Origin: a virus
Lineage: Duplodnaviria; Caudoviricetes
Reading direction: 5' to 3' (one strand)
IMG/VR virus record: IMGVR_UViG_3300027566_000007
Coordinates: 9,341-73,340 of that record
DNA length: 64,000 nucleotides
The notes below the pieces were generated by a model. That model searched no databases and was not told the DNA's origin. It saw only the letters and a program-made list of their open reading frames with translations. Positions 726 through 61,937 of this stretch are shown in pieces (the first letter of the stretch is position 1; each line of letters opens with the position of its first letter). The position numbers were made by a program, and so were the translations under genes.

Positions 726-2293
726 AATATATTGCCGGTGACGGTACAGGCGATTATGATGCAGACGGATCAGGCGATCAAGCCACGATAAACAGGGCGT
801 TGTCCTGGGCGGCTGATAATCCGGGGAACGAAGTACATTTGGTTGGTCCTTACACGTATGACATAGGATCTACGGTTCTGATTGGCTCTGATACAAAATT
901 CACAGGCGATTCTACCGCGGTCCTTCGACTCAACAATTCATGTACCTGGAATGTAGGCGTACCCATTGTTGGACAGATCGGTGGAACTGGAACAGTTTCA
1001 AAAAATATCGAAATTTCGGGTTTTTCGATTGATGGTAACGAAAGCCACTTATACGGGGTCAATGGGCATATTCGCGGGGAAGGCTACTATAATATGATCC
1101 ACATCCAGGGCCAGAAAGCAAAGCGCGCTACTAATATCAAAATACATCATATGAAAATGTATAACGGTATGGGAGACGGCCCACGCCTTGTATTTTGTGA
1201 CGATCCTCATGTATATAACTGTGATCTGCAAAACCTCATGCACTGTTCGGTATTTTGTATTGAGTGCAACGGGGCCTTAACATTTTCAAACACGATTAAG
1301 GCTATTTCATGCTCTGGCGTTCGTTACGATCATTGCAGAAATGGAGCCATCTACAGTAACAATATTGCAGATTTCACCGGGACAACAAATGCCCCGAAAT
1401 TTGGAGAGTACGGCGTCCAGATAGGGTTACAGCCCCCTAAGTACGGACACACTACCCTTGTAGATAATATCGTAATTCGGGATAATACAATTAACGTTAG
1501 CGGTTCAGGAGTACAGTTAGAGGACTACCTAAAATCAGCTGGTTCAACGTCTCAAAAAGTGACAATCACAAACAATCTCATTAAAGGAGGACAGTACAAC
1601 GGCGCTGCTTATTTTGCGGGAGTCGTTATCTATTCTTGGGGTAACGGTCTAACAATTTCCAGAAATACTATCGATGGGTCAGGAAGAGCCGGTATTCTCG
1701 GGTATAATGCAATTAATTCAAGCTCAAAAGTGTTTGTTACTTATAATAATATAATTAATACTGTAAAACTCGGCGGTGACGGTGGTTATGGAATATGGAA
1801 CAGAGCTTCGGGCCTGAAAATCTCCGCGTCGAATAACTATCTGTCCGGAAATGTTGCAGGAAAATATAAGGGAATTACACCTCTTTCAGAGTCTAGTGTC
1901 TACCTTGATTATGCAGTTCCGGGAAGCACACCGGAAACACCAGATGAACCTGACGAACCGGAAGAGCCAGATACTCCAGACGAGCCAGACGTCCCACCTG
2001 AAGACCCGCCAGACAATCCAGTAAACCCTGTTGACCCAGATGAACCCTATGTCCCTATAGAACCAATTGACCCTAATCCGCCTGCTGTAGGCTGTACAGG
2101 AATCGCTATTTTATCAGGTGGAAAATATGTGTTTTTACCTTATAAAATTCTAGAAATTGGGGATGATATGCTCTTAGTTCCTACTGATAACGGGTATATC
2201 CCGCTGAAGCTTGCAAATGAAACCGAAAAAGGTTCAAACATTACGATGATCCAGGATAACAAAGGCAACTATTACGCAATTGAGGGAGTATAA
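716..2293 (+). CDS. Right-handed parallel beta-helix protein (pectin-lyase-like, putative depolymerase) with Pro/Glu/Asp linker
   Basis: N-terminal DQATINRAL...TYDIGSTVLIGSDTKFTGD motif, repeated I.NN.I/I.GG beta-helix rungs, PDEPDEP linker near the C-terminus. Confidence 0.75.
   Translation: MVIKYIAGDGTGDYDADGSGDQATINRALSWAADNPGNEVHLVGPYTYDIGSTVLIGSDTKFTGDSTAVLRLNNSCTWNVGVPIVGQIGGTGTVSKNIEISGFSIDGNESHLYGVNGHIRGEGYYNMIHIQGQKAKRATNIKIHHMKMYNGMGDGPRLVFCDDPHVYNCDLQNLMHCSVFCIECNGALTFSNTIKAISCSGVRYDHCRNGAIYSNNIADFTGTTNAPKFGEYGVQIGLQPPKYGHTTLVDNIVIRDNTINVSGSGVQLEDYLKSAGSTSQKVTITNNLIKGGQYNGAAYFAGVVIYSWGNGLTISRNTIDGSGRAGILGYNAINSSSKVFVTYNNIINTVKLGGDGGYGIWNRASGLKISASNNYLSGNVAGKYKGITPLSESSVYLDYAVPGSTPETPDEPDEPEEPDTPDEPDVPPEDPPDNPVNPVDPDEPYVPIEPIDPNPPAVGCTGIAILSGGKYVFLPYKILEIGDDMLLVPTDNGYIPLKLANETEKGSNITMIQDNKGNYYAIEGV
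1921..2075 (+). repeat. Coding low-complexity repeat (PETPDEPDEPEEPDTPDEPD linker)
   Basis: Degenerate CCNGAY/GAR repeats in frame; a similar linker occurs at about 12885-12945. Confidence 0.8.
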
Positions 2294-14370: not shown

Positions 14371-15573
14371 TCATTTCGGTATTAAATCACCCACGTCTTT
14401 CATTTTTTCAGGATTTGCTTTTATCCACTCAACGAAGAGCCGTTCTGCCGTGACTTTTGCTGATTCGTATTCTTGCTGTGAAGTCATTGTAAGAGGCAGG
14501 CCACATCTTAAACAATAGTTTGCACCCGGAGCGTTCATTTCGCTGCATCTGGGGCATTTTCCCGGCTTCATAGGGTCAATTATAGCCTCACTGTCTTCTA
14601 TGCCATACATGGCCTTTACATCCTTGTCCACATCCCGGCCGGAGAGATGGCAGTATATCGCGGGCATGTCGGAGCCTGCAGTCCATCCGAGATAAACTTT
14701 CATTTGTTGCTCAGTCATGTACTCGCTAAGGTGAGTTGCGCGCGCGTGTCTGAAACCGTGAAGCCAAACACGTTTTTTAATTCCCGTTCGTTCAACGATT
14801 TTTATAAGGGCGCACCTTAAACTAATGTCTGAAATCTGAGTATGCCTGTAGTCCCCTGTCGGCCAGAGCGGGGCGTCTGGCTCATCTTTGAGAGGGTGGA
14901 CATCAAGCCATTGTCTAACATAGGAAGCGAAATTAAAAATAAGAACTCTCCTTGCGCCTGTCTTACCGGCAGGGAAGGTTACAGACGCGCCGCCTGATGG
15001 GAGGAATTCAACGTTCTTGATTTTCATACTTAGGATTTCCCCCACTCTGCAGCCGGACTCATATAGAAGACCAAAAAGGGCTTTATCTCGGAGACAGGCG
15101 GCATGGTCTATGATCTCAAGAACCTCTTCTTTTGTCAGGATGTCTTCAGGAAGCTTAGTTCCTTTCAGGTTTCTGCAGCGTATCACCGCCGCTTCTTTTT
15201 CTTTTCCGATATACTTCAAGAATACCTTAAAGTGCGTTCTCATATTGTTTTTTGTGAATTGTGAAAGAGGCTGTCCCTTGTTAAGTCCCCTCTCACATTC
15301 TTTGACTTCCAGGGTGTCTAAGAAGTCTTCTACGTCTTCAATTGTCGTTTTTGAAAATTCAAAATTAGTACTTATCAGAATCTTGGACAATGAAGTTAAC
15401 AGGGTGTGACATGTTTTCTTACTCTTGCCGTCCCTTATTTGCGAGTTAATAAATTTTATAACAAGCTTTTTATTTTCTTCCGAGGCATTAAGTTTTAATG
15501 TTTCAGCCTTCTTTTTTTCGAGCTTTTTCTCAATCGAGATTTTAGTCTTGGGGTTATTTGGGTTCCTTGGCAT
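14371..15573 (-). CDS. int: Tyrosine recombinase/integrase with C-terminal zinc ribbon
   Basis: LYESGCRVGE (R), KTG (K), HGFRHAR (HxxR), LGW and IY (Y) catalytic set; CPRC...YCLRCG tail. Confidence 0.95.
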   Translation of the reverse strand: MPRNPNNPKTKISIEKKLEKKKAETLKLNASEENKKLVIKFINSQIRDGKSKKTCHTLLTSLSKILISTNFEFSKTTIEDVEDFLDTLEVKECERGLNKGQPLSQFTKNNMRTHFKVFLKYIGKEKEAAVIRCRNLKGTKLPEDILTKEEVLEIIDHAACLRDKALFGLLYESGCRVGEILSMKIKNVEFLPSGGASVTFPAGKTGARRVLIFNFASYVRQWLDVHPLKDEPDAPLWPTGDYRHTQISDISLRCALIKIVERTGIKKRVWLHGFRHARATHLSEYMTEQQMKVYLGWTAGSDMPAIYCHLSGRDVDKDVKAMYGIEDSEAIIDPMKPGKCPRCSEMNAPGANYCLRCGLPLTMTSQQEYESAKVTAERLFVEWIKANPEKMKDVGDLIPK

Positions 15574-16260: not shown

Positions 16261-16701
16261 TCAGAGTTCGGAGTCCTCGTTATCTATTATTCCATATACA
16301 ATAGAAACGTTTTCTTTTTGAGGTATATCTTTTATTTCTGTTGGGTTGGCTTCTAAGTCTTTCGCCTGGTTGAGGCATTTGATGGCCTCCTTAAATTCAC
16401 CTAGTTCTATACACGCTTTCGCTTTCTTTTTAAGAGCGGATATTCTAAATTTTAAGTCGGTGTGTAGCGTATCAGTGAGGGTTTTTAAACATATTTCATC
16501 AGATAAAAATATAGTTAAAAAGCGGTCTATTGACTCATCAATTAACCCAGTGTCTTCTTTTACAAGATGCTCAGCTACCGCTATTGAAATTAAATCACTA
16601 GGGCTTGAGTATTTTTCATTTTCTGTTTCTTTATCGATTTTTTCCACTAAAAACGGACTCATCGACACGCTAATTGTAATTTTTCTTCGCTTTCGCTCCA
16701 T
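16261..16701 (-). CDS. RHH (CopG/Arc-like) regulator with TPR-like C-terminal helices; repressor candidate
   Basis: KITISVSMSPFLVEKID...YSSPSDLISIAV; ACIELGEFKEAIKCLNQAKDL. Confidence 0.7.
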   Translation of the reverse strand: MERKRRKITISVSMSPFLVEKIDKETENEKYSSPSDLISIAVAEHLVKEDTGLIDESIDRFLTIFLSDEICLKTLTDTLHTDLKFRISALKKKAKACIELGEFKEAIKCLNQAKDLEANPTEIKDIPQKENVSIVYGIIDNEDSEL

Positions 16702-17193: not shown

Positions 17194-17346
17194 ATGAGAA
17201 TATTATTCACAGCTCCTAATAGTAAGACAGCTTTTGAAAGTCTTAGAGCAACCGGCATTAAAGGTAGAATACTCCTTCACAGAATGCCTCATTGTACCTG
17301 GACTTTTGAAGCTCTTGTAGGCCCTGTTGGGTGTGGTTCCGAATGA
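17194..17346 (+). CDS. Small hypothetical protein (50 aa)
   Basis: GAGGTGAG RBS; MRILFTAPNSK...; not in ORF track. Confidence 0.5.
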   Translation: MRILFTAPNSKTAFESLRATGIKGRILLHRMPHCTWTFEALVGPVGCGSE

Positions 17347-17459
17347 GCGAATCTGAACTGATCCAACAGGCAAAAACGTACTCCGAAGAAACGATAGAAC
17401 AGCTAACAAAAAACGAACCTTTGTACGCTGCGATCCTAACGATTGCTAGACGAGAGTGA
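17343..17459 (+). CDS. Small hypothetical protein (38 aa)
   Basis: ATGA overlap with the previous ORF; MSESELIQQAKTY... Confidence 0.45.
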   Translation: MSESELIQQAKTYSEETIEQLTKNEPLYAAILTIARRE

Positions 17460-17466
17460 GCATTGT

Positions 17467-17502
17467 GCGGCCTGAATACACGGTTCAACTCCTGGGGGCC
17501 GC
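17467..17502 (+). ncRNA. tRNA-like element 1 (minihelix: acceptor stem plus T-loop)
   Basis: GCGGCCT/GGGCCGC stem enclosing GG-TTCAACT-CC; imperfect T-stem. Confidence 0.5.
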
Positions 17503-17582
17503 TACTGTATCAAGACAAAGTAAACCTCCAAAAAATACCCAGGCTTCTGCTTGCCTGGGGTTCCTCCTAATATGAAAATTCA

Positions 17583-17675
17583 ACGTGTGGTCTAAAGCCT
17601 GTTGCAGACCCCTGTGAAGCCAGGTATGATAATAACTACTCAGGCAGGTTCGATTCAATTCCTTCGATGATACGT
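17583..17675 (+). ncRNA. Degenerate tRNA-like element 1b
   Basis: ACGTGT/ATACGT ends, D-loop-like TGGTCTAA, inner GCCTG/CAGGC stem, duplicated T-loop AGG-TTCGATTCAATT-CCT. Confidence 0.35.
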
Positions 17676-17730
17676 AGATCGAGAAAAGAACTCAGCAGTT
17701 GAGGAACTGCTATAAAAAACCTCACCATAT

Positions 17731-17844
17731 GCCGTGCATGGGAGGGCAATAATAAACACCTGCTGTATCCACAAAAAGACCCAAATTCTACCCTTCAACC
17801 TATGACCTACTCAATTGCCCCCAGGTTCAATTCCTGGGCACGGC
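17731..17844 (+). ncRNA. tRNA-like element 2 (acceptor plus T-arm; long insert replaces anticodon arm)
   Basis: GCCGTGC/GCACGGC 7 bp, CCAGG-TTCAATT-CCTGG, GGGCAAT/ATTGCCC stem closing a C/A-rich loop of about 63 nt. Confidence 0.8.
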
Positions 17845-17999
17845 CTGCCCTGTTTTACAGGGGTATAGTTAGAATGTGTTTATCTCAAGCATAGTGTACG
17901 ACGATGGCTCACGGATTGAGTTAGAATGTCCCTACAGACAAGATAAAGCCCTGGTAAATCCAGGGCTAAAATAAAAAACGGGTTGGAAATAATCATCGT

Positions 18000-18122
18000 G
18001 CCGTACCTCAAAGATGAGGGCAGTCAATTATACCATAGTAACACCCGACAAAGTAACACCTTGAACCTCAGATAACACCCCCTAAAGTTCAAGACTGCTC
18101 AAGGTTCGAATCTTGATACGGC
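18000..18122 (+). ncRNA. tRNA-like element 3 (acceptor, D-like hairpin, long insert, T-arm)
   Basis: GCCGTA/TACGGC, CTCA-AAGA-TGAG, GGCAGTC/GACTGCT stem, inner TTGAAC/GTTCAA hairpin, TCAAG-GTTCGAAT-CTTGA. Confidence 0.75.
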
Positions 18123-18275
18123 CTTTGTTTCAAGTTCACGCTTGAGACAAAATCAATAATGGATTTGAAGAAACTGTAAGGATGTATCGAATTGTGCCCG
18201 GTGTTGGGATTACACAACTTAAAATGTCTTAATATGTCTTAGTAATAGAGGTCCCTGGGATAGCCGGGGACAAAT

Positions 18276-18324
18276 GCCATAATCTGTTTGGAGATTCTGG
18301 GAGGGTTCGATTCCTTCTTATGGC
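18276..18324 (+). ncRNA. tRNA-like element 4 (anticodon-less, 49 nt)
   Basis: GCCATAA/TTATGGC 7 bp, TCT-GTTTGG-AGA D-like arm, GAGGG-TTCGATT-CCTTC. Confidence 0.8.
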
Positions 18325-18459
18325 TTTCGGGAATTTTCCCCGTAAAAATATATAAATAGCTTCTAGTGGAGGTATCTAAAAAAGCGTAACGTGAGAAAAC
18401 TGATATCAAAAATATAAGCCAAAAACTTGTACGAACCAGCCCGGTAATCCGGGCACAAG

Positions 18460-18541
18460 TCTCCTTATAGGCTTAACGGTAAACCGGCCACTGGTCCGAG
18501 ATGGCTAGAGGTAATACGAGGTTCAATTCCTTGTAGGGAGA
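18460..18541 (+). ncRNA. tRNA-like element 5 (near-complete cloverleaf, aberrant anticodon loop)
   Basis: TCTCCTT/AGGGAGA, D-loop TTAACGGTAAA, GGCCA/TGGCT stem with an 11-nt loop, CGAGG-TTCAATT-CCTTG. Confidence 0.7.
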
Positions 18542-18663
18542 TCCGGGACAACCCGGACAAAATAATACAAACAAAAAAATTTAGGCAACTCCTAAACCCT
18601 TGAATCTCTGAAATTGGTCAAACGAAAGACGCTGATGCTTTATAAGTTTCAGCGTCTCAACGT

Positions 18664-18708
18664 GTCCATGTTTGACAGAAAAACACAGGTTCAAACCCTG
18701 GCATGGAC
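18664..18708 (+). ncRNA. tRNA-like element 6 (anticodon-less, 45 nt)
   Basis: GTCCATG/CATGGAC 7 bp, CAGG-TTCAAAC-CCTG. Confidence 0.75.
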
Positions 18709-18767
18709 CATTATTTACTTTTTATGAAAAAGAGGCGTGTGTTATTGAATTTTAGAAGGTGTAAGAA

Positions 18768-18935
18768 ATGAGCGATTTTGAAGACGGTGCTGAGATGGTG
18801 CGGGATTTGAGTCTCGCAGATGAAACGAGTCTCCGAGAAGAACCTGAGAAAAAAGGGAAAAGTTGTACTTTTTGCGGGCAGCTGTTTAAATCAAGTGACG
18901 ATAATCCGTTTTGTCCAGATTGCCGGGAGATTTGA
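18768..18935 (+). CDS. Small zinc-finger protein (55 aa, not in ORF track)
   Basis: CTFCG...PFCPDC; GAAGGTG RBS. Confidence 0.6.
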   Translation: MSDFEDGAEMVRDLSLADETSLREEPEKKGKSCTFCGQLFKSSDDNPFCPDCREI

Positions 18936-19381: not shown

Positions 19382-20611
19382 ATGACTGACAGCCCCGCTA
19401 TTCTTGAACAAAAAATGAAAATACTCATGGGCCTCCGTGGGTATTCGATCATAAAAATTGAGGAAAAACAGGCTCTCTGGAAAATAAACTCCGAAAATGC
19501 AGTCACAGTAGATGTGTCTTTCCCTGCTGAATTGTGGGAAGTGAAACATAAGGGCAAAGTAGTCAACGACTGGAAAAAAGACCCAACTCTCCCCGCAAAT
19601 ACCCGAGATATGATTCAGACGCTCGATGATGAGTTTCAGGCAGCCTGGAACGAAGCTGTAGACAATGGATGGATAATCGAAACTGAGCAGCCCGTTAAAG
19701 TTCCTGAGAAAATAGAGCCTGAAACGGTTCAGTCTGAAACCCCTAAAATTGACCCTGAAATAGAAGAAAAGAACAGGCTTGAAAGAGAAGAAAACGAAAG
19801 ACGGCTCGCGATGGCTGAAGAAGCAAAGAGAATGGAAGATTCTCAAAACGCACATCTGAAACAAGTGCCTCAAAAACAAACAGCTGAAAAATCAGAAGAG
19901 TTTACAGACCGCCCTACTGAATATGTAGAGGCTCCAGCTCCTAAAACAGGAGAAGTCAACCTTTTTGAAGTCTTGAACAAGATATGTAAAAATGACCTTA
20001 TGCAGATTTTTGGACCCACTGGCACGGGAAAGACAAGCCTTTGTACTAAACTGGCCCTTGATTCGAAATTAAAAGGAAAATCGGTTCTATACATCGACAC
20101 TGAGCACAATATGAATGATGACCAGATAGCAGCGATGCAGAAAGCTGGGATAAAATACGAGTTTATAAAGAAGTTCCCAAAACTCTGTGACTATGTAAAA
20201 AGACTGCCTTCACTCTCTAAGTATAATGTTGTGGTCATTGATAGTATAGGAGCTCCTGCGCTAGCTGCTTTTTGCAGATCAGATATGAGAGGAAAAGGCG
20301 ATGTATTACAAAAATTAATTTGGATGTCGGACGACCTTAAAGAATATGCCACTGACAATAACTCCCTGGTAGTAGCCACCAATCAGCCTGAATCATCTAT
20401 GAACAAGGGAGAGAATGACATCCTGGAACCTTTTGGAGAAAAATCCAGATATTATTATAAAGAGATCCTTAAAACCAACTATGCTGCGCATGGTCGAAAG
20501 ACGGGAAAAACTACACTGGTTTTGAGAGCTCATCGATCCAGATTTATGGGGATCGATACAAATGTTTGTACTATGGAAGTAACTGACAAAGGTGTAAAGG
20601 TGATCCAATGA
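19382..20611 (+). CDS. RecA/RadB-like ATPase with long N-terminal extension
   Basis: Walker A GPTGTGKT, YIDTE, Walker B VVVIDSI, VVATNQ. Confidence 0.85.
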   Translation: MTDSPAILEQKMKILMGLRGYSIIKIEEKQALWKINSENAVTVDVSFPAELWEVKHKGKVVNDWKKDPTLPANTRDMIQTLDDEFQAAWNEAVDNGWIIETEQPVKVPEKIEPETVQSETPKIDPEIEEKNRLEREENERRLAMAEEAKRMEDSQNAHLKQVPQKQTAEKSEEFTDRPTEYVEAPAPKTGEVNLFEVLNKICKNDLMQIFGPTGTGKTSLCTKLALDSKLKGKSVLYIDTEHNMNDDQIAAMQKAGIKYEFIKKFPKLCDYVKRLPSLSKYNVVVIDSIGAPALAAFCRSDMRGKGDVLQKLIWMSDDLKEYATDNNSLVVATNQPESSMNKGENDILEPFGEKSRYYYKEILKTNYAAHGRKTGKTTLVLRAHRSRFMGIDTNVCTMEVTDKGVKVIQ

Positions 20612-27377: not shown

Positions 27378-27908
27378 ATGCCAGCCCAAAAGAAAAGAAA
27401 ATTAAAGAAACCAAAACAGGTAAATAAAAGTAAAGAATTTACCTGGTCAACAAAACGCAAAGAAGCGGCGTTATTACTATCAACCGGCTTGAAAACACAG
27501 AAAGAAGTCTGTGAGGAAATTCACATCACTGAAAAAACGATGTGTGAATGGAAGAAGTTTCCGGCCTTTTTAGAGAAAATTGACGAGCTCACTATCAAAA
27601 ATGAGAATTTCACACGAGCAGGGCTGTTAAAAGAGTGTCTTAAAGGACTTTCTATAAAAACTGATCACATATGTGAAGACAGATCAACCCATCTTGATTA
27701 TGTAAAACTGATTGCGGATTTACAGGGGCACACTAAACAGAAAGTAGAGCTTGATGCAAATTTAAAACATTCGAATGAACAAGACCCTGAAGAAATGACT
27801 GATGAAGAATTGAGGCAATCGATTAGAGATGATATCACAAAACTTATCACTGCAGGATATGTCCAGACAAGAACTACTAAAGATATATCAGCAAGTGAAG
27901 AAAACTAA
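27378..27908 (+). CDS. terS: Terminase small subunit (HTH)
   Basis: N-terminal HTH (AALLL...QKEVCEEIHITEKTMCEWKK..AF), QKVEL.ANL motif, overlaps terL. Confidence 0.8.
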   Translation: MPAQKKRKLKKPKQVNKSKEFTWSTKRKEAALLLSTGLKTQKEVCEEIHITEKTMCEWKKFPAFLEKIDELTIKNENFTRAGLLKECLKGLSIKTDHICEDRSTHLDYVKLIADLQGHTKQKVELDANLKHSNEQDPEEMTDEELRQSIRDDITKLITAGYVQTRTTKDISASEEN

Positions 27909-29421
27909 AAAAAAAGCAAGAGCTGCATCAAAAAAGCTTGCTAAATCAAACTTCCTAAATTTCACTCGTTATACCATGGAAGATTTCCGGGAGAGCTGGC
28001 ACCATAGAAAAATGGCCTCACTTCTTGAAGAATTCGTAAATAAAGAAATAACCAGACTAATTATTGACGTTCCTCCAAGACATACCAAATCTGAATTTGT
28101 TTCTCGCCGGCTTCCTCCTTATATCTTTGGGCGATTCCCAGATGCTAAAATTATTTCCTGTTCTTATGGGGCTGACCTGGCTTCTCAAATGAATGGCGAC
28201 GCACAGGCAATTATGGACGAACATTCTTATCATGAAGTTTTTCCAAATACTTTTTTAAATAGTTCAAATGTCAGAACAGTCGCAGGATCTTATAAAAGAA
28301 ACTCAGATATCTTTGAAATTGTAGGTAGAAAGGGTGTTTATAAATGTGCCGGAGTTGGGGGCGCAATTACCGGTTATGGTATGGATTACGGCATAATCGA
28401 TGATTATTTTAAAAATAGAGAAGAAGCCGAGAGCCCCGTATTTAGGGAGAAGCTCTGGAAATGGTATATGAGTACCTTCAGATCAAGGAGGCAGAAAAAC
28501 GCAGCTATCCTTATTACAGCTACTCGATGGCATGAAGACGACCTGGTTGGACGACTATTAAATCTCGCTGAACAAAATCCAAAGGCGGATCAATGGGAAG
28601 TTTTTTCATTACCAGCATTAACTGATGAAGAGCCTATAGCTGAGTATGATGAAAGAACAGGGCCCAATCAGGCTTTATGGCCAGATGAATTTTCAGTAGA
28701 CGACCTGCTAAGTACTAAAGCTTCTTTAACTACTTATGAATGGCTTTCACTCTATCAACAAAGACCGTCTGCAGCAGCAGGCAACCTTGTAAAGAAAGAA
28801 GACTTTAAATACTGTACTCTTGAAAACGGAGTTCTTACTCTATTCACTGACAAGGCAGCAGGCTCTAAAAAACTATTCATGCTTAACCAGTGCAAGGTAT
28901 TTCAAACATGTGATCCTGCAGCCTCAGAGAAAAAAACAGCTAATGATTTCGTTTTAGCCACGTGGGCACAGACTCCAAATAACGACCTTGCTTTAATAGA
29001 TATCTTAAAAACTAATTTAGAAACCCCTAAACACGTTCCTCTTTTTAAACAACAGTATGTAAAACACCACCCTCAGCAACAATGGATTGAAACTGATGGA
29101 GTAGGCCGGCCAACATTCCAATTATTAAGAGAAGAAGGGCTCCCAATTGCTGAATTAAAAACATCAGGGCACGATAAGTTAATTAGGTTTATACCTGCAG
29201 CTACAAGGATTACTGCAGGAGCAGTATATTTCTTAGCCGAAGCGCCTTGGTTAACGGCTTATGAAAGCGAGCTTTTAGGATTTCCAAACACCAAACAAAA
29301 CGGCCAGGTCGATGTTACGTCTTATGCTTGCCAGGTAGTTATAGAACATCCATTTATTGTTGAGTCTTACGAAACAACCTATGTAGGAGAAGGTGTAAGC
29401 TCCGGCGGCTTTTGGATATAA
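27829..29421 (+). CDS. terL: Terminase large subunit (start probably 27859)
   Basis: Walker A-like VPPRHTKS, GVGGAITG, IIDD, ATRWHEDD, LYQQRP, RNase H-like DPA...DF, FP...DVTSYA. Confidence 0.95.
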   Translation: MISQNLSLQDMSRQELLKIYQQVKKTKKKARAASKKLAKSNFLNFTRYTMEDFRESWHHRKMASLLEEFVNKEITRLIIDVPPRHTKSEFVSRRLPPYIFGRFPDAKIISCSYGADLASQMNGDAQAIMDEHSYHEVFPNTFLNSSNVRTVAGSYKRNSDIFEIVGRKGVYKCAGVGGAITGYGMDYGIIDDYFKNREEAESPVFREKLWKWYMSTFRSRRQKNAAILITATRWHEDDLVGRLLNLAEQNPKADQWEVFSLPALTDEEPIAEYDERTGPNQALWPDEFSVDDLLSTKASLTTYEWLSLYQQRPSAAAGNLVKKEDFKYCTLENGVLTLFTDKAAGSKKLFMLNQCKVFQTCDPAASEKKTANDFVLATWAQTPNNDLALIDILKTNLETPKHVPLFKQQYVKHHPQQQWIETDGVGRPTFQLLREEGLPIAELKTSGHDKLIRFIPAATRITAGAVYFLAEAPWLTAYESELLGFPNTKQNGQVDVTSYACQVVIEHPFIVESYETTYVGEGVSSGGFWI

Positions 29422-35491: not shown

Positions 35492-36295
35492 ATGCCTTTC
35501 ACCATATCAAATTTCAAAAAAACCCTAAAATCCGCTTTTTCTAAACTCGAAAAAGACCAATCAGAAGCTTTAGCCGTCGAGATCTCAGCAAACTTTATAG
35601 CAGGCCAGACAGCAGCCGAGAAACACAAATCTATTAAATCAGCAGAACCAGAGGACGACGGCCTAACAGACGAAGAAAAAGCAGAAATAGCAACCCTTAC
35701 AGCTCTATATCTAGGCTACATCTCTGAATTCAATATCAGAGCACAAACTCAGATACTCACCAGGGTCCAGGAGCTTGTCAAGGCAGGCAACAGCCAGGAC
35801 GAAATACAAAGTTATGTTGATAGTGTCTTTTCAGGCGAAGAGTCTATAGTAATTGATAATGTGAGTAAGGAACGTAAAGAAATTTACGTTGATGAAAATC
35901 TTAAATTATCCGAAGTTACCAGAACCGTTGAGAATCCATTTTATAGCTCAGTTCTGGCTTATGCTTCACTTATTGGGGCGATAGCCTCACACACAGCCTA
36001 TGAGAAGGGCAAGGAATTGTATAATAAAGCACAGGGTTATAATAAATGGATCTTCTCAGGCCCCGCCGATGAGCGAGCGAGACCCTGGCACGTTGCTTTG
36101 TTGGGTCAGGTGTTTACCTATGGTACGGTACAAAGTAATTATGCTGAACAATGTTTAGGTGAGCCACGGTGCAGACATAGGAAAGAAGTATGGTATGGGG
36201 ATTCGAGGGACACGTCCCAGGAAAAATGGGAACAGTTAAAAAGAGATGCTGGTTTATTTTGGGACGATAAAGCCAAAACCTGGGCTTTGAAATAA
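35492..36295 (+). CDS. Head morphogenesis protein (MuF/gp7-like)
   Basis: WIFSGPADERARPWHVAL...PRCRH motif. Confidence 0.75.
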   Translation: MPFTISNFKKTLKSAFSKLEKDQSEALAVEISANFIAGQTAAEKHKSIKSAEPEDDGLTDEEKAEIATLTALYLGYISEFNIRAQTQILTRVQELVKAGNSQDEIQSYVDSVFSGEESIVIDNVSKERKEIYVDENLKLSEVTRTVENPFYSSVLAYASLIGAIASHTAYEKGKELYNKAQGYNKWIFSGPADERARPWHVALLGQVFTYGTVQSNYAEQCLGEPRCRHRKEVWYGDSRDTSQEKWEQLKRDAGLFWDDKAKTWALK

Positions 36296-57903: not shown

Positions 57904-58866
57904 ATGACAGTATCAGCACCAAACGAGGAATTTCTTACAAAAAGGTTTGTCGTTCCTTACATGTTCGAAATTATGAACCCCATGCTTGCATGGACGGACA
58001 TGTTCCCAATGGTTCGATCAACGGCTCCGGTTGTTGGTTACAAACAGGAAACCGTTTCAGATTCGACGGACACCAAGAAACAGAAACCAAAAATCAAAAC
58101 AACTACAGGCCAGTGGACTTATGTGAACATTTCACAGTTCACAATGAAATCAGCTATCCTGAACAAAAAGGGTTTTGCAATCAAGATTGACCCGGATGCC
58201 CTCGACTACACCGAGGGAGTAGACGAAATTCAAAGGGCTTTCCGGAAAACAGCTTTCTGGATTGCTGAAGATTTTAACGACAGGATTTCTGATGAAATCA
58301 CGGCTTCAGCCACTGCACTTTCTACAGATTGGACTCCTTCTGCAGTATGGTCTGATCCAAACGCAACCCCAATTGCTGACCTCGAAGACCTGGAAGACTG
58401 CTTCATCCGTGAAGGGTATCCGTATAGACTCACAGATGTCTATGTGCACAAAACCAATTTCAAGGAATTCAAAAAGTATCTTACCAGCATAGATATCGGA
58501 GACTTCAAACAGCAGAACCTATATGGAGTTCCAAACAACGGTAAGATGGACTCAATTGACGTTCCAGTAGTGGGTACAACTGTTCACAGACTTCTTTCAG
58601 GTGTTTCAGAGGGGTCTATTGTTGCGATGGACCGCAATAACCCTGGACTGTCGGTGTTCTACAATCCAAGTCGCCGGTACTCTGTCATGAACGGCAACTA
58701 CAATACCATAGCAAACGGGCAGAAAATAAGCAAGTCGCTTGCATATGGTTTTAACTACAACCGGTACACCGACCAGGAAACTCACGAAGAAGTAATACAG
58801 CTCTGGTATGATAACGTACCTGTCACACTTGAGCCGTATGCAATCGCAACCGATCAAGGGATTTAA
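57904..58866 (+). CDS. Major capsid protein (HK97 fold)
   Basis: 320 aa; KKGFAIKI, WSDPNATPIADL and RLTDVYVH patterns; strong GGAGGGG RBS; canonical position. Confidence 0.8.
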   Translation: MTVSAPNEEFLTKRFVVPYMFEIMNPMLAWTDMFPMVRSTAPVVGYKQETVSDSTDTKKQKPKIKTTTGQWTYVNISQFTMKSAILNKKGFAIKIDPDALDYTEGVDEIQRAFRKTAFWIAEDFNDRISDEITASATALSTDWTPSAVWSDPNATPIADLEDLEDCFIREGYPYRLTDVYVHKTNFKEFKKYLTSIDIGDFKQQNLYGVPNNGKMDSIDVPVVGTTVHRLLSGVSEGSIVAMDRNNPGLSVFYNPSRRYSVMNGNYNTIANGQKISKSLAYGFNYNRYTDQETHEEVIQLWYDNVPVTLEPYAIATDQGI

Positions 58867-59750: not shown

Positions 59751-61937
59751 ATGCCACGCGAAGACTTTGTTCTGCCTAGAGGCGGGACTGCGGCGTTATG
59801 GGCATCGAGAAATACGGTGTTAGCTCTCAGGGAACTAGGGGTAGAAACTGATACTAAAAAGATGAAGATCGGCGACGGTGTAACACATTGGAATGATCTT
59901 CCGTATATAACTGGGCCTGTTGACGGTGACAATGTTGATCTCCAAGTGAAAAGAGACACAGATGTGAATTTATCAGCTTTGACAACTCCGTTTTTAAGCG
60001 GGCAGCTTGTTTATGGTCAAACTACTGGAAAAACTGTAATAGGTGATGGGGAGTCTTTATTTGATGAGTTGCCAGATTTGAGGAAGCAGTTTCAGAATGT
60101 TGTAACTGTGAGTAAGAGTGGGAAGAAGGGGAGTGCTGATTTTATATGTTCTGATTCACAGTGGAATTCTGATGATGAGTGTATACAGGCGGCGATTGAT
60201 TATTGCGCTACACATAGTATCAAAGAATTGTGGATTAATGAGGGGTATTATATAATAAATGCTCAACTTACAGGATCATCTGATATTAATATTAAAGGTG
60301 TTGGGGACGTAACTCTATTTTCAAATTCACTAGCTTCAGATTTAATTTCATTATCGGGTTCTGTTTTAAAAACAGTAACCGGATCAGATGTTGCGGTTGG
60401 CGCAACATCAATTATGGTATCAGACGTTACGGGGATTAATCCAGGGGATCTTATCTTAATTTATGATGATACCATATGGGACGATGGATCAACTTACGCT
60501 AGTCTGAAAACCGGGGAAATACACGAGGTATTAAGTGTTTCTGGCAGCACTGTTAATTTTATAGACGGGTTAATTAATGCGTATACCGCTGTAAACAATC
60601 TCTCCGTACAAGTCATTAATCCAATTCGTGTTAATATCGAAAATATCAAATTTTTGGGATCTTCTGAGACCACAGCGAATGGGCTTGTTTCGCTCACGTA
60701 TGCTAAATATAGTATAATTTCTGAGTGTATATTGGATAAAGGCGGCCTGCGTGGATTGCATATAAACAATTCATATTTTGTATCCGCTGAAAAACTCAAA
60801 ATTTCAAACTGTATCAGAGACGGGTATGGATATGGGATATCGATATCTAATGCATGTGCACACGTCGGTATACAAAAATCGAAATTAGATATGTGTAGAC
60901 ATTGTATATCGCTAGGTGGGGATGAATCTATCGGGCAAGCGCGAGACATACACATTTATAATAATGAAGTGTATGGAAATGGGTTATATCACACAATTGA
61001 CGCTCACGCATGTGTAGAATCGATATATGTTAATAATAATATAATTCATGCTAATAAAAAATCCGCATTCACAAGCGGTGCAAAAATTTCTGAATTTAAA
61101 AATAATAGGGTGTATAATGGTATAGCTGTATCCGTGAGAGACACAACTAAAAATATGGTATTTTTAGTTGATAGCAATTCTCTGTTTTCATGTTGGTATG
61201 GTTTTAGCGATACCACAGAAGGTGCAACTATAAAATATTTGTCATTCTCAAATAATGATATCATAGATGGGTTGTACTACATGTTATACGTTACCCATGC
61301 AAGTATTATAAACATTGTAAATAATAATATAAATAAATCAACAGAACTGTATGGTATACGTGTTCATTCGGCGACGGGTGGAAAAATACAAAACAATATA
61401 ATTCAAAATACGTTTAGAGACGGGATATATTTAATCGATTGCTCAAACATCACCCTATCTAACAATGTTATTGAAAATAGCAATGGGTCAAACACGGCAG
61501 GACAATTATATGAATCAGGTATTGCACTAACACGCTGTACAAATTTAAAAATATTTAATAATGATGTAAGCGATGCATTTGGTAAACAGAGATACGCAAT
61601 CGCTGAATATGATACTTGTAATAACAATAAAATTAAAAATAATACGGTTAGCGGGGCAATAATAAAACAGATTCTCAAAGTCGGAGCAGCAACAGTTATT
61701 TTTAATAACGACGGGTATATCACAGAAAACACCGGCACAGCAACAATTACCACCTCCTCAACCTCTGTAGTAGTCAGTCACGGTTTAGTAGCAGCCCCCA
61801 CAAAATATTTTGCATTCCCATCAGCAAATTTGGGTAACTGTTGGATTGATACTGTAACAGCTACACAAATGACTATTCACTGTTCAACTGCACCAGGAGC
61901 AGATACAGTAGTAAGTTGGTCTGCGCAGGTGGTTTAA
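59751..61937 (+). CDS. Spike/fibre: two Mtd-N-like repeats plus pectate-lyase-like beta-helix
   Basis: W...N.VL...ELGVETDTKKMKIGDGVTHWNDLPY and a second IGDG...F.ELP; DDECIQAAID; beta-helix rungs; C-terminal V.HGL..AP...VSW.A. Confidence 0.75.
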   Translation: MPREDFVLPRGGTAALWASRNTVLALRELGVETDTKKMKIGDGVTHWNDLPYITGPVDGDNVDLQVKRDTDVNLSALTTPFLSGQLVYGQTTGKTVIGDGESLFDELPDLRKQFQNVVTVSKSGKKGSADFICSDSQWNSDDECIQAAIDYCATHSIKELWINEGYYIINAQLTGSSDINIKGVGDVTLFSNSLASDLISLSGSVLKTVTGSDVAVGATSIMVSDVTGINPGDLILIYDDTIWDDGSTYASLKTGEIHEVLSVSGSTVNFIDGLINAYTAVNNLSVQVINPIRVNIENIKFLGSSETTANGLVSLTYAKYSIISECILDKGGLRGLHINNSYFVSAEKLKISNCIRDGYGYGISISNACAHVGIQKSKLDMCRHCISLGGDESIGQARDIHIYNNEVYGNGLYHTIDAHACVESIYVNNNIIHANKKSAFTSGAKISEFKNNRVYNGIAVSVRDTTKNMVFLVDSNSLFSCWYGFSDTTEGATIKYLSFSNNDIIDGLYYMLYVTHASIINIVNNNINKSTELYGIRVHSATGGKIQNNIIQNTFRDGIYLIDCSNITLSNNVIENSNGSNTAGQLYESGIALTRCTNLKIFNNDVSDAFGKQRYAIAEYDTCNNNKIKNNTVSGAIIKQILKVGAATVIFNNDGYITENTGTATITTSSTSVVVSHGLVAAPTKYFAFPSANLGNCWIDTVTATQMTIHCSTAPGADTVVSWSAQVV

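What the first reader, a model, noticed from the sequence alone, without database searches (positions are those of the whole stretch)
17460..18710. Array of anticodon-less tRNA mimics in the early operon (top candidate novel system)
In 1.25 kb without credible ORFs lie 6-7 same-strand elements (17467, 17583, 17731, 18000, 18276, 18460, 18664). The well-formed ones have a 6-7-bp acceptor-like stem and a GG-TTCRANY-C T-loop directly 5' of the 3' acceptor strand, giving the roughly 12-bp acceptor/T helix measured by RNase P, RNase Z and CCA-adding enzyme. Stem sequences differ between elements but stay paired, which indicates selection on structure. The anticodon arm is absent (1, 4, 6), enlarged (5) or replaced by long inserts (2, 3), so they should not decode. 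Hypotheses: decoys for tRNA-targeting defence nucleases or synthetases/modifying enzymes; processing signals that cut the early transcript into stable small RNAs; tRNA-shaped scaffolds presenting cargo loops.
Basis: partly seen in the sequence, partly recalled or inferred. Interest (0 to 1): 0.92.

Follow-up and report, generated by a model that had tools for sequence, protein, structure and literature searches.

The report
tRNA-derived RNA array in archaeal virus
A head-tailed virus of the methanogen Methanosarcina carries, between its regulatory and replication genes, a conserved row of shrunken or remodelled tRNA look-alikes that keep only the half of a tRNA gripped by processing enzymes, so they probably act as RNA cutting signals or mimics and not as decoders.

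Summary
Window 17467-18709 (+ strand, no credible ORF) has six elements with a 6-8 bp acceptor stem abutting a T arm. Four are strict (17731, 18276, 18460, 18664). Two have irregular T arms (17467, 18000). The seventh (17583) is structured but not tRNA-like. Shuffles give 0.004 strict elements against 4 observed. None is a canonical tRNA by ARAGORN or Rfam.

Homologous arrays lie at the same place in at least 10 related contigs, including proviruses in two Methanosarcina genomes. Some relatives have canonical tRNA-Ser(UGA) and tRNA-Gln(UUG) there. The 49-nt element at 18276 shares its acceptor stem with that tRNA-Ser, so the elements descend from viral tRNA genes.

They are not simply decaying. 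Against a close relative, paired positions changed 1.8% and the rest 12.8%. The mini class keeps 100% pairing, with 5 of 11 pairs changed on both sides. Conserved GC hairpins flank each element; host tRNA genes lack them.

Best reading (inferred, no RNA data): t-element-like substrates for host RNase P and RNase Z that cut the early transcript into tRNA-like RNAs and hairpin-capped spacer RNAs. Decoy and scaffold roles stay open. No host-tRNA (att) match was found.

The scan noted a comparable anticodon-less tRNA look-alike in a giant virus.

The parts
17467..17503 (+). Element 1: 7-bp acceptor-like stem closing a weak T-like arm (GGTTCAACTCC). It starts 7 nt after the stop codon of the upstream small ORF (17331-17459).
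   Evidence: The L010 and L013 orthologues keep the stem through C-G to U-A and G-C to A-U changes. L008 carries a 15-nt hairpin insertion inside it.
17521..17529 (+). Conserved single-stranded motif UAAACCUCC (resembles an anti-Shine-Dalgarno sequence) after element 1, followed by an A-run and a hairpin.
   Evidence: The same 9-mer occurs at the same relative place in L007 and L013, and a near copy in L002. Function unknown.
17538..17559 (+). GC hairpin (7 bp).
   Evidence: Stem unchanged in L008 although the loop changed. The L013 and L010 counterparts differ in sequence.
17583..17690 (+). 'Element 2': structured stretch with two overlapping T-loop-like motifs, not tRNA-like. A dispensable module.
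   Evidence: RNAfold z = +0.6. No scanner hit. A metagenomic variant replaces 17573-17726 by 4 nt.
17731..17845 (+). Element 3: 7-bp acceptor, canonical T arm, D and anticodon arms replaced by a 7-bp long-range helix. The helix encloses a G-poor, C/A-rich loop of about 62 nt (cargo class).
   Evidence: The L010 orthologue has a different 10-12 bp helix at the same place.
17848..17862 (+). Hairpin starting 2 nt after the discriminator base of element 3.
   Evidence: Conserved in position but not in sequence in L007 and L010.
17948..17966 (+). GC hairpin (7 bp), followed by an A/T-rich box centred about 27 nt upstream of element 4.
   Evidence: no change against L008.
18000..18123 (+). Element 4: 6-7 bp acceptor, small D-like hairpin, 12-bp interrupted helix carrying C/A-rich loops (AACACC three times), slipped T hairpin (cargo class).
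   Evidence: RNAfold z = -3.7, 0 of 200 shuffles as stable. The L007 and L013 orthologues have the same four-way layout, canonical T arms and different stem sequences.
18124..18151 (+). 11-bp hairpin directly after element 4.
   Evidence: downstream 32-nt MFE -12.8 kcal/mol.
18252..18270 (+). GC hairpin with one G-U pair, ending 5 nt before element 5.
18276..18325 (+). Element 5: 49-nt mini made of a 7-bp acceptor, an 18-nt linker and a canonical T arm. A truncated descendant of viral tRNA-Ser(UGA).
   Evidence: Weak Rfam mascRNA-like hit, 18.8 bits. The same acceptor stem occurs in a canonical tRNA-Ser(UGA) in L272 (Rfam 60 bits), a 72-nt form in L268 (50 bits), a 97-nt form in L010 (41.5 bits), and minis in L008, L266, L007 and L014.
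18328..18342 (+). Hairpin starting 2-3 nt after element 5.
   Evidence: Counterparts follow the orthologues in L007, L010, L268 and L015.
18439..18454 (+). GC hairpin (6 bp) ending 5 nt before element 6.
18460..18542 (+). Element 6: near-complete cloverleaf with an 8-bp acceptor, a poor D arm, an 11-nt 'anticodon' loop, a 10-12 nt variable region and a canonical T arm. Related to viral tRNA-Gln(UUG).
   Evidence: ARAGORN calls it only at lowered thresholds. One loop site reads three different letters in the window, L008 and L266.
18543..18556 (+). Hairpin CCGGG-ACAA-CCCGG directly after element 6, followed by an A-rich tract.
   Evidence: Conserved in sequence behind tRNA-like or true tRNA genes in L008, L014, L017, L272, L015, L268, G002 and G009.
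18627..18657 (+). 9-bp hairpin ending 6 nt before element 7.
18664..18709 (+). Element 7: 45-nt mini made of a 7-bp acceptor, a 14-nt A-rich linker and a 4-bp T stem with a T loop. It is the last element, about 60 nt before the first replication-module ORF.
   Evidence: Rfam tRNA 16.3 bits. The class is found in L008, L266, L010, L272, L013, L015 and L268. 100% pairing, 5 of 11 pairs changed on both sides, 0 of 500 shuffles as good.
18720..18724 (+). First run of 5 T after the array. Candidate archaeal terminator or part of the next promoter.
   Evidence: T-rich runs follow the last element in L008, L010, L015 and L268. The role is not resolved.

Best explanation
The stretch is a + strand array of RNA modules derived from viral tRNA genes. 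It lies in the early region of a temperate head-tailed Methanosarcina virus, between the last small regulatory ORF and the replication genes. Each module keeps the tRNA 'top half': the acceptor stem stacked on the T arm, about 12 bp. It has lost, shrunk or replaced the D and anticodon arms, so it cannot decode. The top half is what RNase P, RNase Z and the CCA-adding enzyme recognise (established knowledge). The most likely mechanism is therefore that of t-elements. Host RNase P cuts at the 5' end and RNase Z at the 3' end of every module. This would divide the early transcript and separate the upstream from the downstream mRNA. It would also release (a) small tRNA-like RNAs, two of which display long G-poor C/A-rich loops, and (b) spacer RNAs of 120-155 nt. 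Each spacer begins and ends with a GC hairpin that would shield it from exonucleases. Shown: the structures, their conservation, selection on the + strand RNA, their descent from tRNA-Ser/Gln genes, and the virus-specific flanking hairpins. Inferred: transcription, cleavage at the predicted ends, and any downstream role of the released RNAs.
For: Non-random array: 4 strict elements against 0.004 in shuffles, and the T-loop motif 5 times in the array against 0 elsewhere in the window. Non-decoding: no ARAGORN or Rfam call. One loop site in element 6 varies freely among close relatives. Descent from tRNA genes: relatives have canonical tRNA-Ser(UGA), tRNA-Gln(UUG) and intermediates with the same acceptor stems and the same flanks. 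Selection on structure: against L008, 4 of 222 paired positions changed (the 3 substitutions in the tRNA-like stems all keep the pair) against 131 of 1021 elsewhere, Fisher p = 4e-8. The element-7 class shows 66 of 66 cells paired and 5 of 11 pairs changed on both sides, with 0 of 500 shuffles as good and slid controls at 26-46% paired. The long-range helices of the cargo class sit at the same place with unrelated sequences. Processing context: position -1 is U in 23 of 25 viral elements. A hairpin ends 4-9 nt upstream and another starts 1-3 nt downstream. The 32-nt flanks fold to -8.4/-5.9 kcal/mol against -2.5/-1.9 for 30 host tRNA genes (p = 6e-6 and 1e-4). True tRNAs in relatives sit in the same hairpin frame. 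Element 1 begins 7 nt after a stop codon in the window and in L010. Precedent: plant mitochondrial t-elements define mRNA ends through RNase P/Z (PMC1920247). In the archaeon Haloferax, t-element-flanked RNAs are released precisely by RNase P and RNase Z in vivo (PMC6546412).
Against: There is no transcript evidence at all: ends, CCA addition and abundance are untested. Elements 1 and 4 have poor T arms, and in L008 the T loop of element 4 has lost its motif, so not every module need be a good substrate. A/T-rich boxes lie about 26 nt upstream of some hairpins or elements, so some modules could be separate genes and not parts of one transcript. Processing alone does not explain why long, fast-evolving C/A-rich loops are kept on elements 3 and 4. 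It also does not explain why six or seven cutting signals are needed where one would do.
Confidence: 0.55

Rival explanations
1. The tRNA-like RNAs themselves are the product. They would act as decoys or competitive inhibitors for host factors that recognise the tRNA acceptor/T half: defence nucleases or 3'-end-modifying toxins, synthetases, modification enzymes or elongation factor. Processing would only be the way they are matured. This overlaps with the best explanation rather than excluding it.
For: Exactly the top half is conserved, and the T-loop sequence is kept even where no D loop remains to pair with it. Several different acceptor sequences are maintained side by side. The element-7 mini is present in every array examined, including those that still have true tRNAs. 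From general knowledge, phage tRNAs are used against tRNA-cleaving defences.
Against: No tRNA-targeting defence of Methanosarcina has been linked to this. No tRNA-repair or related viral gene was found among about 40 ORFs scanned. Decoys do not explain the hairpin-capped spacers or the cargo loops.
Confidence: 0.2
2. A decaying viral tRNA gene cluster: pseudogenes with no present function.
For: Relatives have canonical tRNA-Ser(UGA) and tRNA-Gln(UUG) where this virus has truncated or distorted versions, and a graded series exists at 60, 50, 41.5 and under 20 Rfam bits. Whole modules come and go among variants. Element 4 loses its T-loop motif in L008.
Against: Stems change about 7 times less than loops and spacers between close relatives, and the 3 stem substitutions all keep pairing. 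Compensatory changes occur in distant relatives. The mini forms of elements 5 and 7 persist in viruses whose ATPase is 35-74% identical. Random decay would not remove the inner arms cleanly while leaving 7/7 acceptor pairing.
Confidence: 0.12
3. Some elements are real but unusual decoders. Examples would be element 6 with an expanded anticodon loop, or elements 3 and 4 as intron-containing pre-tRNAs.
For: Element 6 has all four arms. Archaeal tRNAs can carry introns. The L268 orthologue of element 5 scores 50 bits as a tRNA but has an 8-nt loop.
Against: No bulge-helix-bulge motif flanks the inserts, which fold as continuous helices with large loops. In the 7-nt-loop reading of element 6, position 33 is G (not the usual U), and a loop site varies among close relatives. 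ARAGORN with introns allowed finds nothing at normal thresholds. The viral ORFs read normally with the standard code.
Confidence: 0.05
4. A DNA-level element: attP made of host tRNA fragments, a replication origin, or operator palindromes.
For: An integrase gene lies 1.9 kb upstream. The stretch is ORF-free, rich in inverted repeats and A-runs, and lies next to replication genes.
Against: 59 Methanosarcina species genomes hold no att-like identity to the array. Both acceptor strands are present, not only 3' halves. Stems contain 27 G-U pairs against 4 A-C, and all elements lie on one strand, which points to RNA. Caveat: the scanner accepted G-U pairs, so this ratio is partly biased.
Confidence: 0.05

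Closest known systems
t-elements of plant mitochondria (PMC1920247) and the tRNA-like t-elements used in Haloferax to release RNAs by RNase P and RNase Z (PMC6546412)
   Same: Non-decoding tRNA-like folds with an acceptor stem and a GGTTCRANYCC T arm, embedded in longer transcripts. They are thought or shown to direct RNase P/Z cuts that create the ends of neighbouring RNAs. An archaeal precedent for precise release exists.
   Different: Here they are viral, clustered six in 1.25 kb with no ORF between them, each framed by GC hairpins. Some carry long C/A-rich loops. Cleavage has not been shown.
Viral tRNA gene clusters with accompanying stable tRNA-like RNAs (phage T4 RNAs C and D, from my own knowledge; the scan's note e1-5463756 on a giant-virus anticodon-less tRNA-Leu look-alike)
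   Same: tRNA-shaped, non-decoding RNAs that sit inside a viral tRNA cluster and are conserved among relatives. Relatives of this virus have true tRNA-Ser and tRNA-Gln genes in the same array.
   Different: In this virus no canonical tRNA is left. The reduction goes as far as 41-50 nt minihelix-like RNAs. The host is an archaeon.
TMERs of murine gammaherpesvirus 68 (PMC4337559)
   Same: A cluster of viral tRNA-like units, each followed directly by stem-loops, not aminoacylated, matured by host tRNA enzymes. They are bifunctional elements.
   Different: TMERs rely on eukaryotic RNA polymerase III promoters inside the tRNA-like part, and their hairpins are microRNA precursors. Neither applies in archaea. 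There is no sequence relation.
mascRNA / MEN-beta tRNA-like RNAs (Rfam RF01684)
   Same: A tRNA-like RNA without a working anticodon, cut out by RNase P and RNase Z, whose excision makes the 3' end of the upstream RNA. Element 5 gives a weak hit of 18.8 bits.
   Different: The score is far below the family threshold of 42.5 bits. That family is vertebrate and nuclear, with no homology implied.
Bacterial and phage Y-RNA-like YrlA and the tmRNA tRNA-like domain
   Same: A tRNA-like module (acceptor and T arm) joined to a long helix or large loop in place of the anticodon arm, as in elements 3 and 4.
   Different: Rfam found no YrlA match in the window, and the only tmRNA matches were 8.2 and 6.7 bits against a threshold of 47. 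There is no tag reading frame. No Ro or SmpB partner is evident.

Membership tests
Canonical tRNA (Rfam RF00005 / ARAGORN) | Score at or above the Rfam gathering threshold (29 bits), or an ARAGORN call at default settings | tested here: not met
   0 hits at gathering threshold. The best hit is 16.3 bits, element 7. ARAGORN finds 0 in the whole 73-kb genome, also with introns allowed.
Canonical tRNA (Rfam RF00005 / ARAGORN) | 5-bp anticodon stem with a 7-nt loop (U33, anticodon at 34-36) | tested here: not met
   Absent in elements 1, 5 and 7. Replaced by long helices and loops in elements 3 and 4. Element 6 has an 11-nt loop with a site that varies among close relatives.
Canonical tRNA (Rfam RF00005 / ARAGORN) | 7-bp acceptor stem stacked on a 5-bp T stem with a T loop | tested here: met
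   Elements 3, 5, 6 (8 bp) and 7. Partly met in elements 1 and 4.
t-elements (tRNA-like processing signals) | Non-canonical tRNA-like fold containing the conserved T-arm motif and an acceptor stem | tested here: met
t-elements (tRNA-like processing signals) | RNA ends that coincide with the element's 5' and 3' boundaries (RNase P / RNase Z cleavage), with non-encoded C or CCA at the 3' end | not testable with these tools
   No run on record as RNA holds the stretch. The runs that were laid are contigs flagged 'probably DNA'.
t-elements (tRNA-like processing signals) | Embedded in a longer transcript next to mRNAs | tested here: inconclusive
   Element 1 starts 7 nt after a stop codon, and the array has the orientation of the flanking ORFs. 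Possible internal promoters cannot be excluded.
tRNA-fragment att sites | Identity of the element's 3' part to a host tRNA gene | tested here: not met
   BLAST of the array against 59 Methanosarcina species genomes gave no tRNA match. The only real hit is a 62-nt, 77% match in G009, at the site that carries the same tRNA-like plus hairpin motif. None of 30 host tRNAs of G009 shares an acceptor stem.
mascRNA-menRNA (RF01684) | Rfam gathering score of 42.5 bits | tested here: not met
   Element 5 scores 18.8 bits, E = 1.5.
tmRNA / YrlA | Match to the Rfam model. For tmRNA also a tag reading frame | tested here: not met
   For tmRNA there were only 8.2 and 6.7 bit fragments at the T loops, and no YrlA match. 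ARAGORN finds no tmRNA.

The most novel reading that the evidence does not exclude
A natural tRNA-punctuated non-coding RNA cassette in an archaeal virus. Host RNase P and RNase Z would cut the early transcript at six tRNA top-half modules. This would release two new classes of viral small RNA: tRNA-shaped scaffolds that display fast-evolving single-stranded C/A-rich loops, and hairpin-capped A-rich spacer RNAs. These would act on the host as sponges, antisense RNAs, or decoys for tRNA-directed defence during early infection. It would be the natural counterpart of the engineered tRNA-guide-RNA and t-element-crRNA arrays.
Probability: 0.3. Interest if true: 0.85.

Novelty: new variant of a known kind. 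Interest (0 to 1): 0.7.

Why it matters
Very little is known about non-coding RNAs of archaeal viruses, and almost nothing for viruses of methanogens. This array documents how viral tRNA genes are turned into non-decoding RNAs while selection keeps only the enzyme-recognition half. A graded series runs from canonical tRNA-Ser, through a 97-nt and a 72-nt form, to 46-54 nt minis in related viruses. If the predicted cuts occur, this would be a natural archaeal example of tRNA-guided RNA punctuation producing defined small RNAs. It would also be a source of very small substrates for archaeal RNase P, RNase Z and the CCA-adding enzyme. A related array lies in a 5.8-Mb Methanosarcina genome (G002, a locus also listed as an IMG/VR viral record), which could make the question testable if that strain is in culture.

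Tried and rejected
Expression: the look-up of sequencing runs listed no holder on record as RNA. The four 'RNA-Seq' wastewater runs that were laid are contigs flagged 'probably DNA' and say nothing about transcription or ends.

Antisense idea: loops and spacers have no complementarity to the virus's own genome beyond shuffled controls (an earlier version of the script timed out).

AACACC motif: it occurs 4 times in the loops of elements 3 and 4 (12-fold enriched), but it is not conserved in the loops of relatives.

Anti-Shine-Dalgarno idea: CCUCC occurs only twice in the array, and only the UAAACCUCC site is conserved. This is a lead, not a finding.

Oligo-T avoidance: the window's array has no run of 5 or more T and ten runs of 5 or more A. 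Over all arrays, however, T-runs are not depleted (8 seen, about 5 expected by my own estimate from base composition). Only A-runs are enriched (54 seen, about 15 expected on the same estimate).

CRISPR-repeat or att similarity: no such match in 59 Methanosarcina genomes.

Searches that gave nothing: phage database blastn, and a single-protein scan of the viral collection.

Patterns built on the GCCGT...ACGGC acceptor were far too unspecific and returned ordinary phage tRNAs and unrelated long tRNA-like genes. High-GC hits of the hairpin pattern were tmRNA or tRNA ends of bacteria.

Covariance model R1 (element-7 class) was too specific to serve as a general detector. MAFFT misaligned the 5' acceptor strands of the element-5 class, so that class was counted by script instead.

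Pfam on the small flanking ORFs gave nothing useful, and no viral tRNA-processing or repair enzyme was found.

Promoter assignment (A/T-rich boxes about 26 nt upstream of some hairpins) was judged by eye only and is left open.
Full report
CONTEXT. The window is bases 9341-73340 of a 73,340-bp IMG/VR virus record, rated complete. Pfam and PHROGs hits indicate a temperate head-tailed virus.
- Structural and packaging genes: large terminase 27829-29421, Mu-F-like 35492-36295, capsid-like 57904-58866, and several beta-helix fibre proteins.
- Lysogeny genes: tyrosine integrase 14371-15573 (-) and a TPR protein 16261-16701 (-).
- Downstream of the finding: + strand early or replication genes, including a 409-aa AAA_24/Sak4-like ATPase at 19382-20611.
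- Host: a disaggregatase-related domain points to Methanosarcina. So do relatives on a contig of a Methanosarcina MAG (L012) and in two genomes of the Methanosarcina genus sample (G002, G009).

THE OBSERVATION. Between the stop codon at 17459 and the ATG at 18768 there is no credible ORF. I wrote a scanner for the tRNA 'top half'. It required a 7/7 acceptor stem, a T stem of at least 4/5 pairs closed by G-C, a TTCRANN loop, and a 3' acceptor strand abutting the T arm.
- It finds four elements, all on the + strand: 17731, 18276, 18460 and 18664.
- Only one weak hit occurs in the rest of the window's two strands.
- Dinucleotide shuffles of the region give 0.004 elements on average.
- GGTTCRANNCC occurs five times in the array and nowhere else in the window.
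- The elements at 17467 and 18000 have sound acceptor stems but irregular T arms. The stretch at 17583 is not tRNA-like.
- ARAGORN and Rfam call no tRNA. The best scores are 16.3 bits for tRNA and 18.8 bits for mascRNA, both far below threshold.
Elements 1, 5 and 7 are minis of 37-50 nt. Elements 3 and 4 are 'cargo' elements, in which a long-range helix with a G-poor (0.13-0.15 G) C/A-rich loop replaces the anticodon arm. Element 6 is a cloverleaf with an 8-bp acceptor and an 11-nt loop.

RELATIVES. Homologues of the neighbouring ATPase led to contigs with an ORF-free gap of about 0.9-1.2 kb at the same place. These gaps hold the same kinds of element in the same order.
- A pattern made of the T loop plus the conserved downstream hairpin found further arrays. 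They occur in IMG/VR (L017, L022), in metagenomes (L266, L268, L272, L276, L279), and in 2 of 284 Methanosarcinales genomes.
- Under relaxed criteria there are 29 elements in 9.4 kb of arrays, against 39 in 283 kb of flanking sequence.

DESCENT FROM tRNA GENES.
- L015, L017, L022, L272, L276 and L279 carry a canonical tRNA-Gln(UUG), scored by Rfam at 52-59 bits where tested. It sits inside the same hairpin frame as element 6 and has a related acceptor stem.
- L272 carries a canonical tRNA-Ser(UGA), 60 bits, G73, whose acceptor stem is identical to that of element 5.
- The same acceptor stem also occurs on a 72-nt tRNA with an 8-nt anticodon loop (L268, 50 bits). It occurs on a 97-nt form with a true D arm and an 11-bp extended 'anticodon' helix (L010, 41.5 bits). 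A near-identical stem (one pair changed) occurs on minis of 46-54 nt (L007, L014); the window, L008 and L266 carry the 49-nt mini.
- The array is therefore a viral tRNA cluster in which most members have become non-decoders. In this virus all of them have.

NOT NEUTRAL DECAY.
- In the alignment with L008, about 90% identical over the array even though its ATPase is only 56% identical, 4 of 222 positions in tRNA-like and hairpin stems changed. Three of the four are substitutions, all in tRNA-like stems and all pair-preserving. Elsewhere in the array 131 of 1021 positions changed, Fisher p = 4e-8.
- In the element-7 class (six sequences from viruses whose ATPases are as low as 40% identical), all 66 pair cells are standard pairs. 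Five of 11 pairs show changes on both sides. No shuffle of 500 does as well, and slid registers give only 26-46% pairing (also 75).
- Across 30 elements, 342 of 360 stem cells pair, with 27 G-U against 4 A-C. This fits selection on the + strand RNA, though the scanner's acceptance of G-U biases the ratio.
- The long-range helices of the cargo class are conserved in place but not in sequence.
- One site in the loop of element 6 reads three different letters in three close relatives, which argues against a constrained anticodon.

THE FRAME AROUND EACH ELEMENT.
- Nearly every element is preceded by a GC hairpin that ends 4-9 nt upstream, and has U at position -1 (23 of 25). This includes the true tRNAs of relatives. 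A second hairpin starts 1-3 nt after the discriminator and is often followed by an A-rich tract.
- Thirty tRNA genes of a Methanosarcina genome have no such structured flanks. Their 32-nt MFEs are -2.5/-1.9 kcal/mol, against -8.4/-5.9 for the viral elements (p = 6e-6 and 1e-4).
- Each 120-155 nt spacer thus begins and ends with a hairpin.
- A natural variant lacks the module 17573-17726 and another lacks 18123-18235. L008 has insertions of 15 and 51 nt. The array therefore evolves by whole modules.

MECHANISM. RNase P, RNase Z and the CCA-adding enzyme recognise the acceptor/T-arm half of tRNA (established knowledge). Two precedents apply. Plant mitochondrial t-elements define mRNA ends through these enzymes (PMC1920247). 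In Haloferax, RNAs flanked by t-elements are released precisely by RNase P and RNase Z in vivo (PMC6546412). I therefore consider it most likely (0.55) that the modules are kept as processing substrates. They would cut the early transcript, liberate the tRNA-like RNAs and the hairpin-capped spacers, and uncouple the upstream small-ORF mRNA from the replication-gene mRNA. All of this is inferred, because no RNA evidence could be obtained. What the released RNAs do is open. A decoy role for the minis and a display role for the C/A-rich loops remain possible and do not exclude processing.

ALTERNATIVES TESTED. No att-like identity to 59 Methanosarcina genomes was found. The inserts show no bulge-helix-bulge introns. 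The loops and spacers show no antisense match to the viral genome. No motif is conserved in the cargo loops.

NOVELTY. Seven full-text searches found no description of such arrays in Methanosarcina or other archaeal viruses. The concept has precedents: non-decoding tRNA-like RNAs in viral tRNA clusters, t-elements, TMERs (PMC4337559) and mascRNA. I therefore rate it a new variant of a known kind. It is unusual for the degree of reduction, the cargo loops, the hairpin framing and the archaeal viral setting. The scan's notes hold one comparable case on other DNA, an anticodon-less tRNA-Leu look-alike in a giant virus.

Noticed in passing
window 17573-17726 and 18123-18235: Metagenomic contigs of close relatives lack these two stretches. 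The first is replaced by 4 nt. Whole modules of the array are therefore gained or lost.
   Followed up: partly
window 17560-17730 against L008: This 170-nt stretch, including the non-tRNA-like 'element 2', differs at only 2 positions from L008 while the rest of the array differs by about 10%. Either recent exchange or strong constraint could explain it.
   Followed up: no
L008 about 1017-1067 (insertion after window 17996) and the insertion after window 17475: L008 has a 51-nt insertion that begins with a copy of the leader and first bases of element 4. It also has a 15-nt hairpin inserted inside element 1.
   Followed up: no
window 17521-17529; L007 5888; L013 1724; L002 about 6197: The conserved motif UAAACCUCC (resembling an anti-Shine-Dalgarno sequence) follows the first element in distant relatives, followed by an A-run and a GC hairpin.
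   Followed up: partly
window 18163-18178; L013 2272-2285: A short spacer motif (ATTTGAAGAAACTG) is shared by the window and a distant relative. Another conserved spacer hairpin lies at 17908-17920 and at L010 about 1662-1676.
   Followed up: no
L040:2193-2328 (-) and many similar IMG/VR loci (L041-L152): About 100 unrelated, mostly higher-GC viral contigs carry 113-139 nt genes (many of them 132-137 nt) with a tRNA acceptor and T arm that ARAGORN does not call. The one folded looks like a tRNA-Ser with a variable arm of about 60 nt (Rfam tRNA 45 bits).
   Followed up: partly
L068:1978-2099 and similar loci from phage records of about 157 kb: A 122-nt tRNA-like gene with an acceptor, a T arm and two long internal hairpins lies next to a tRNA cluster. 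Rfam does not recognise it.
   Followed up: no
window 59751-61937: A tail-fibre-like protein has an Mtd_N (major tropism determinant N-terminal) domain plus a beta helix. Whether a diversity-generating retroelement is present was not checked.
   Followed up: no
L272 about 760-1190 (- strand): In this relative an ORF of about 130 aa sits inside the array, between the tRNA-Ser and the next tRNA-like element.
   Followed up: no
L011 (contig CAZUGK010000253.1): A contig binned as an 'uncultured Clostridiaceae' MAG encodes a 73%-identical copy of the viral ATPase. This is probably a misbinned Methanosarcina virus fragment.
   Followed up: no
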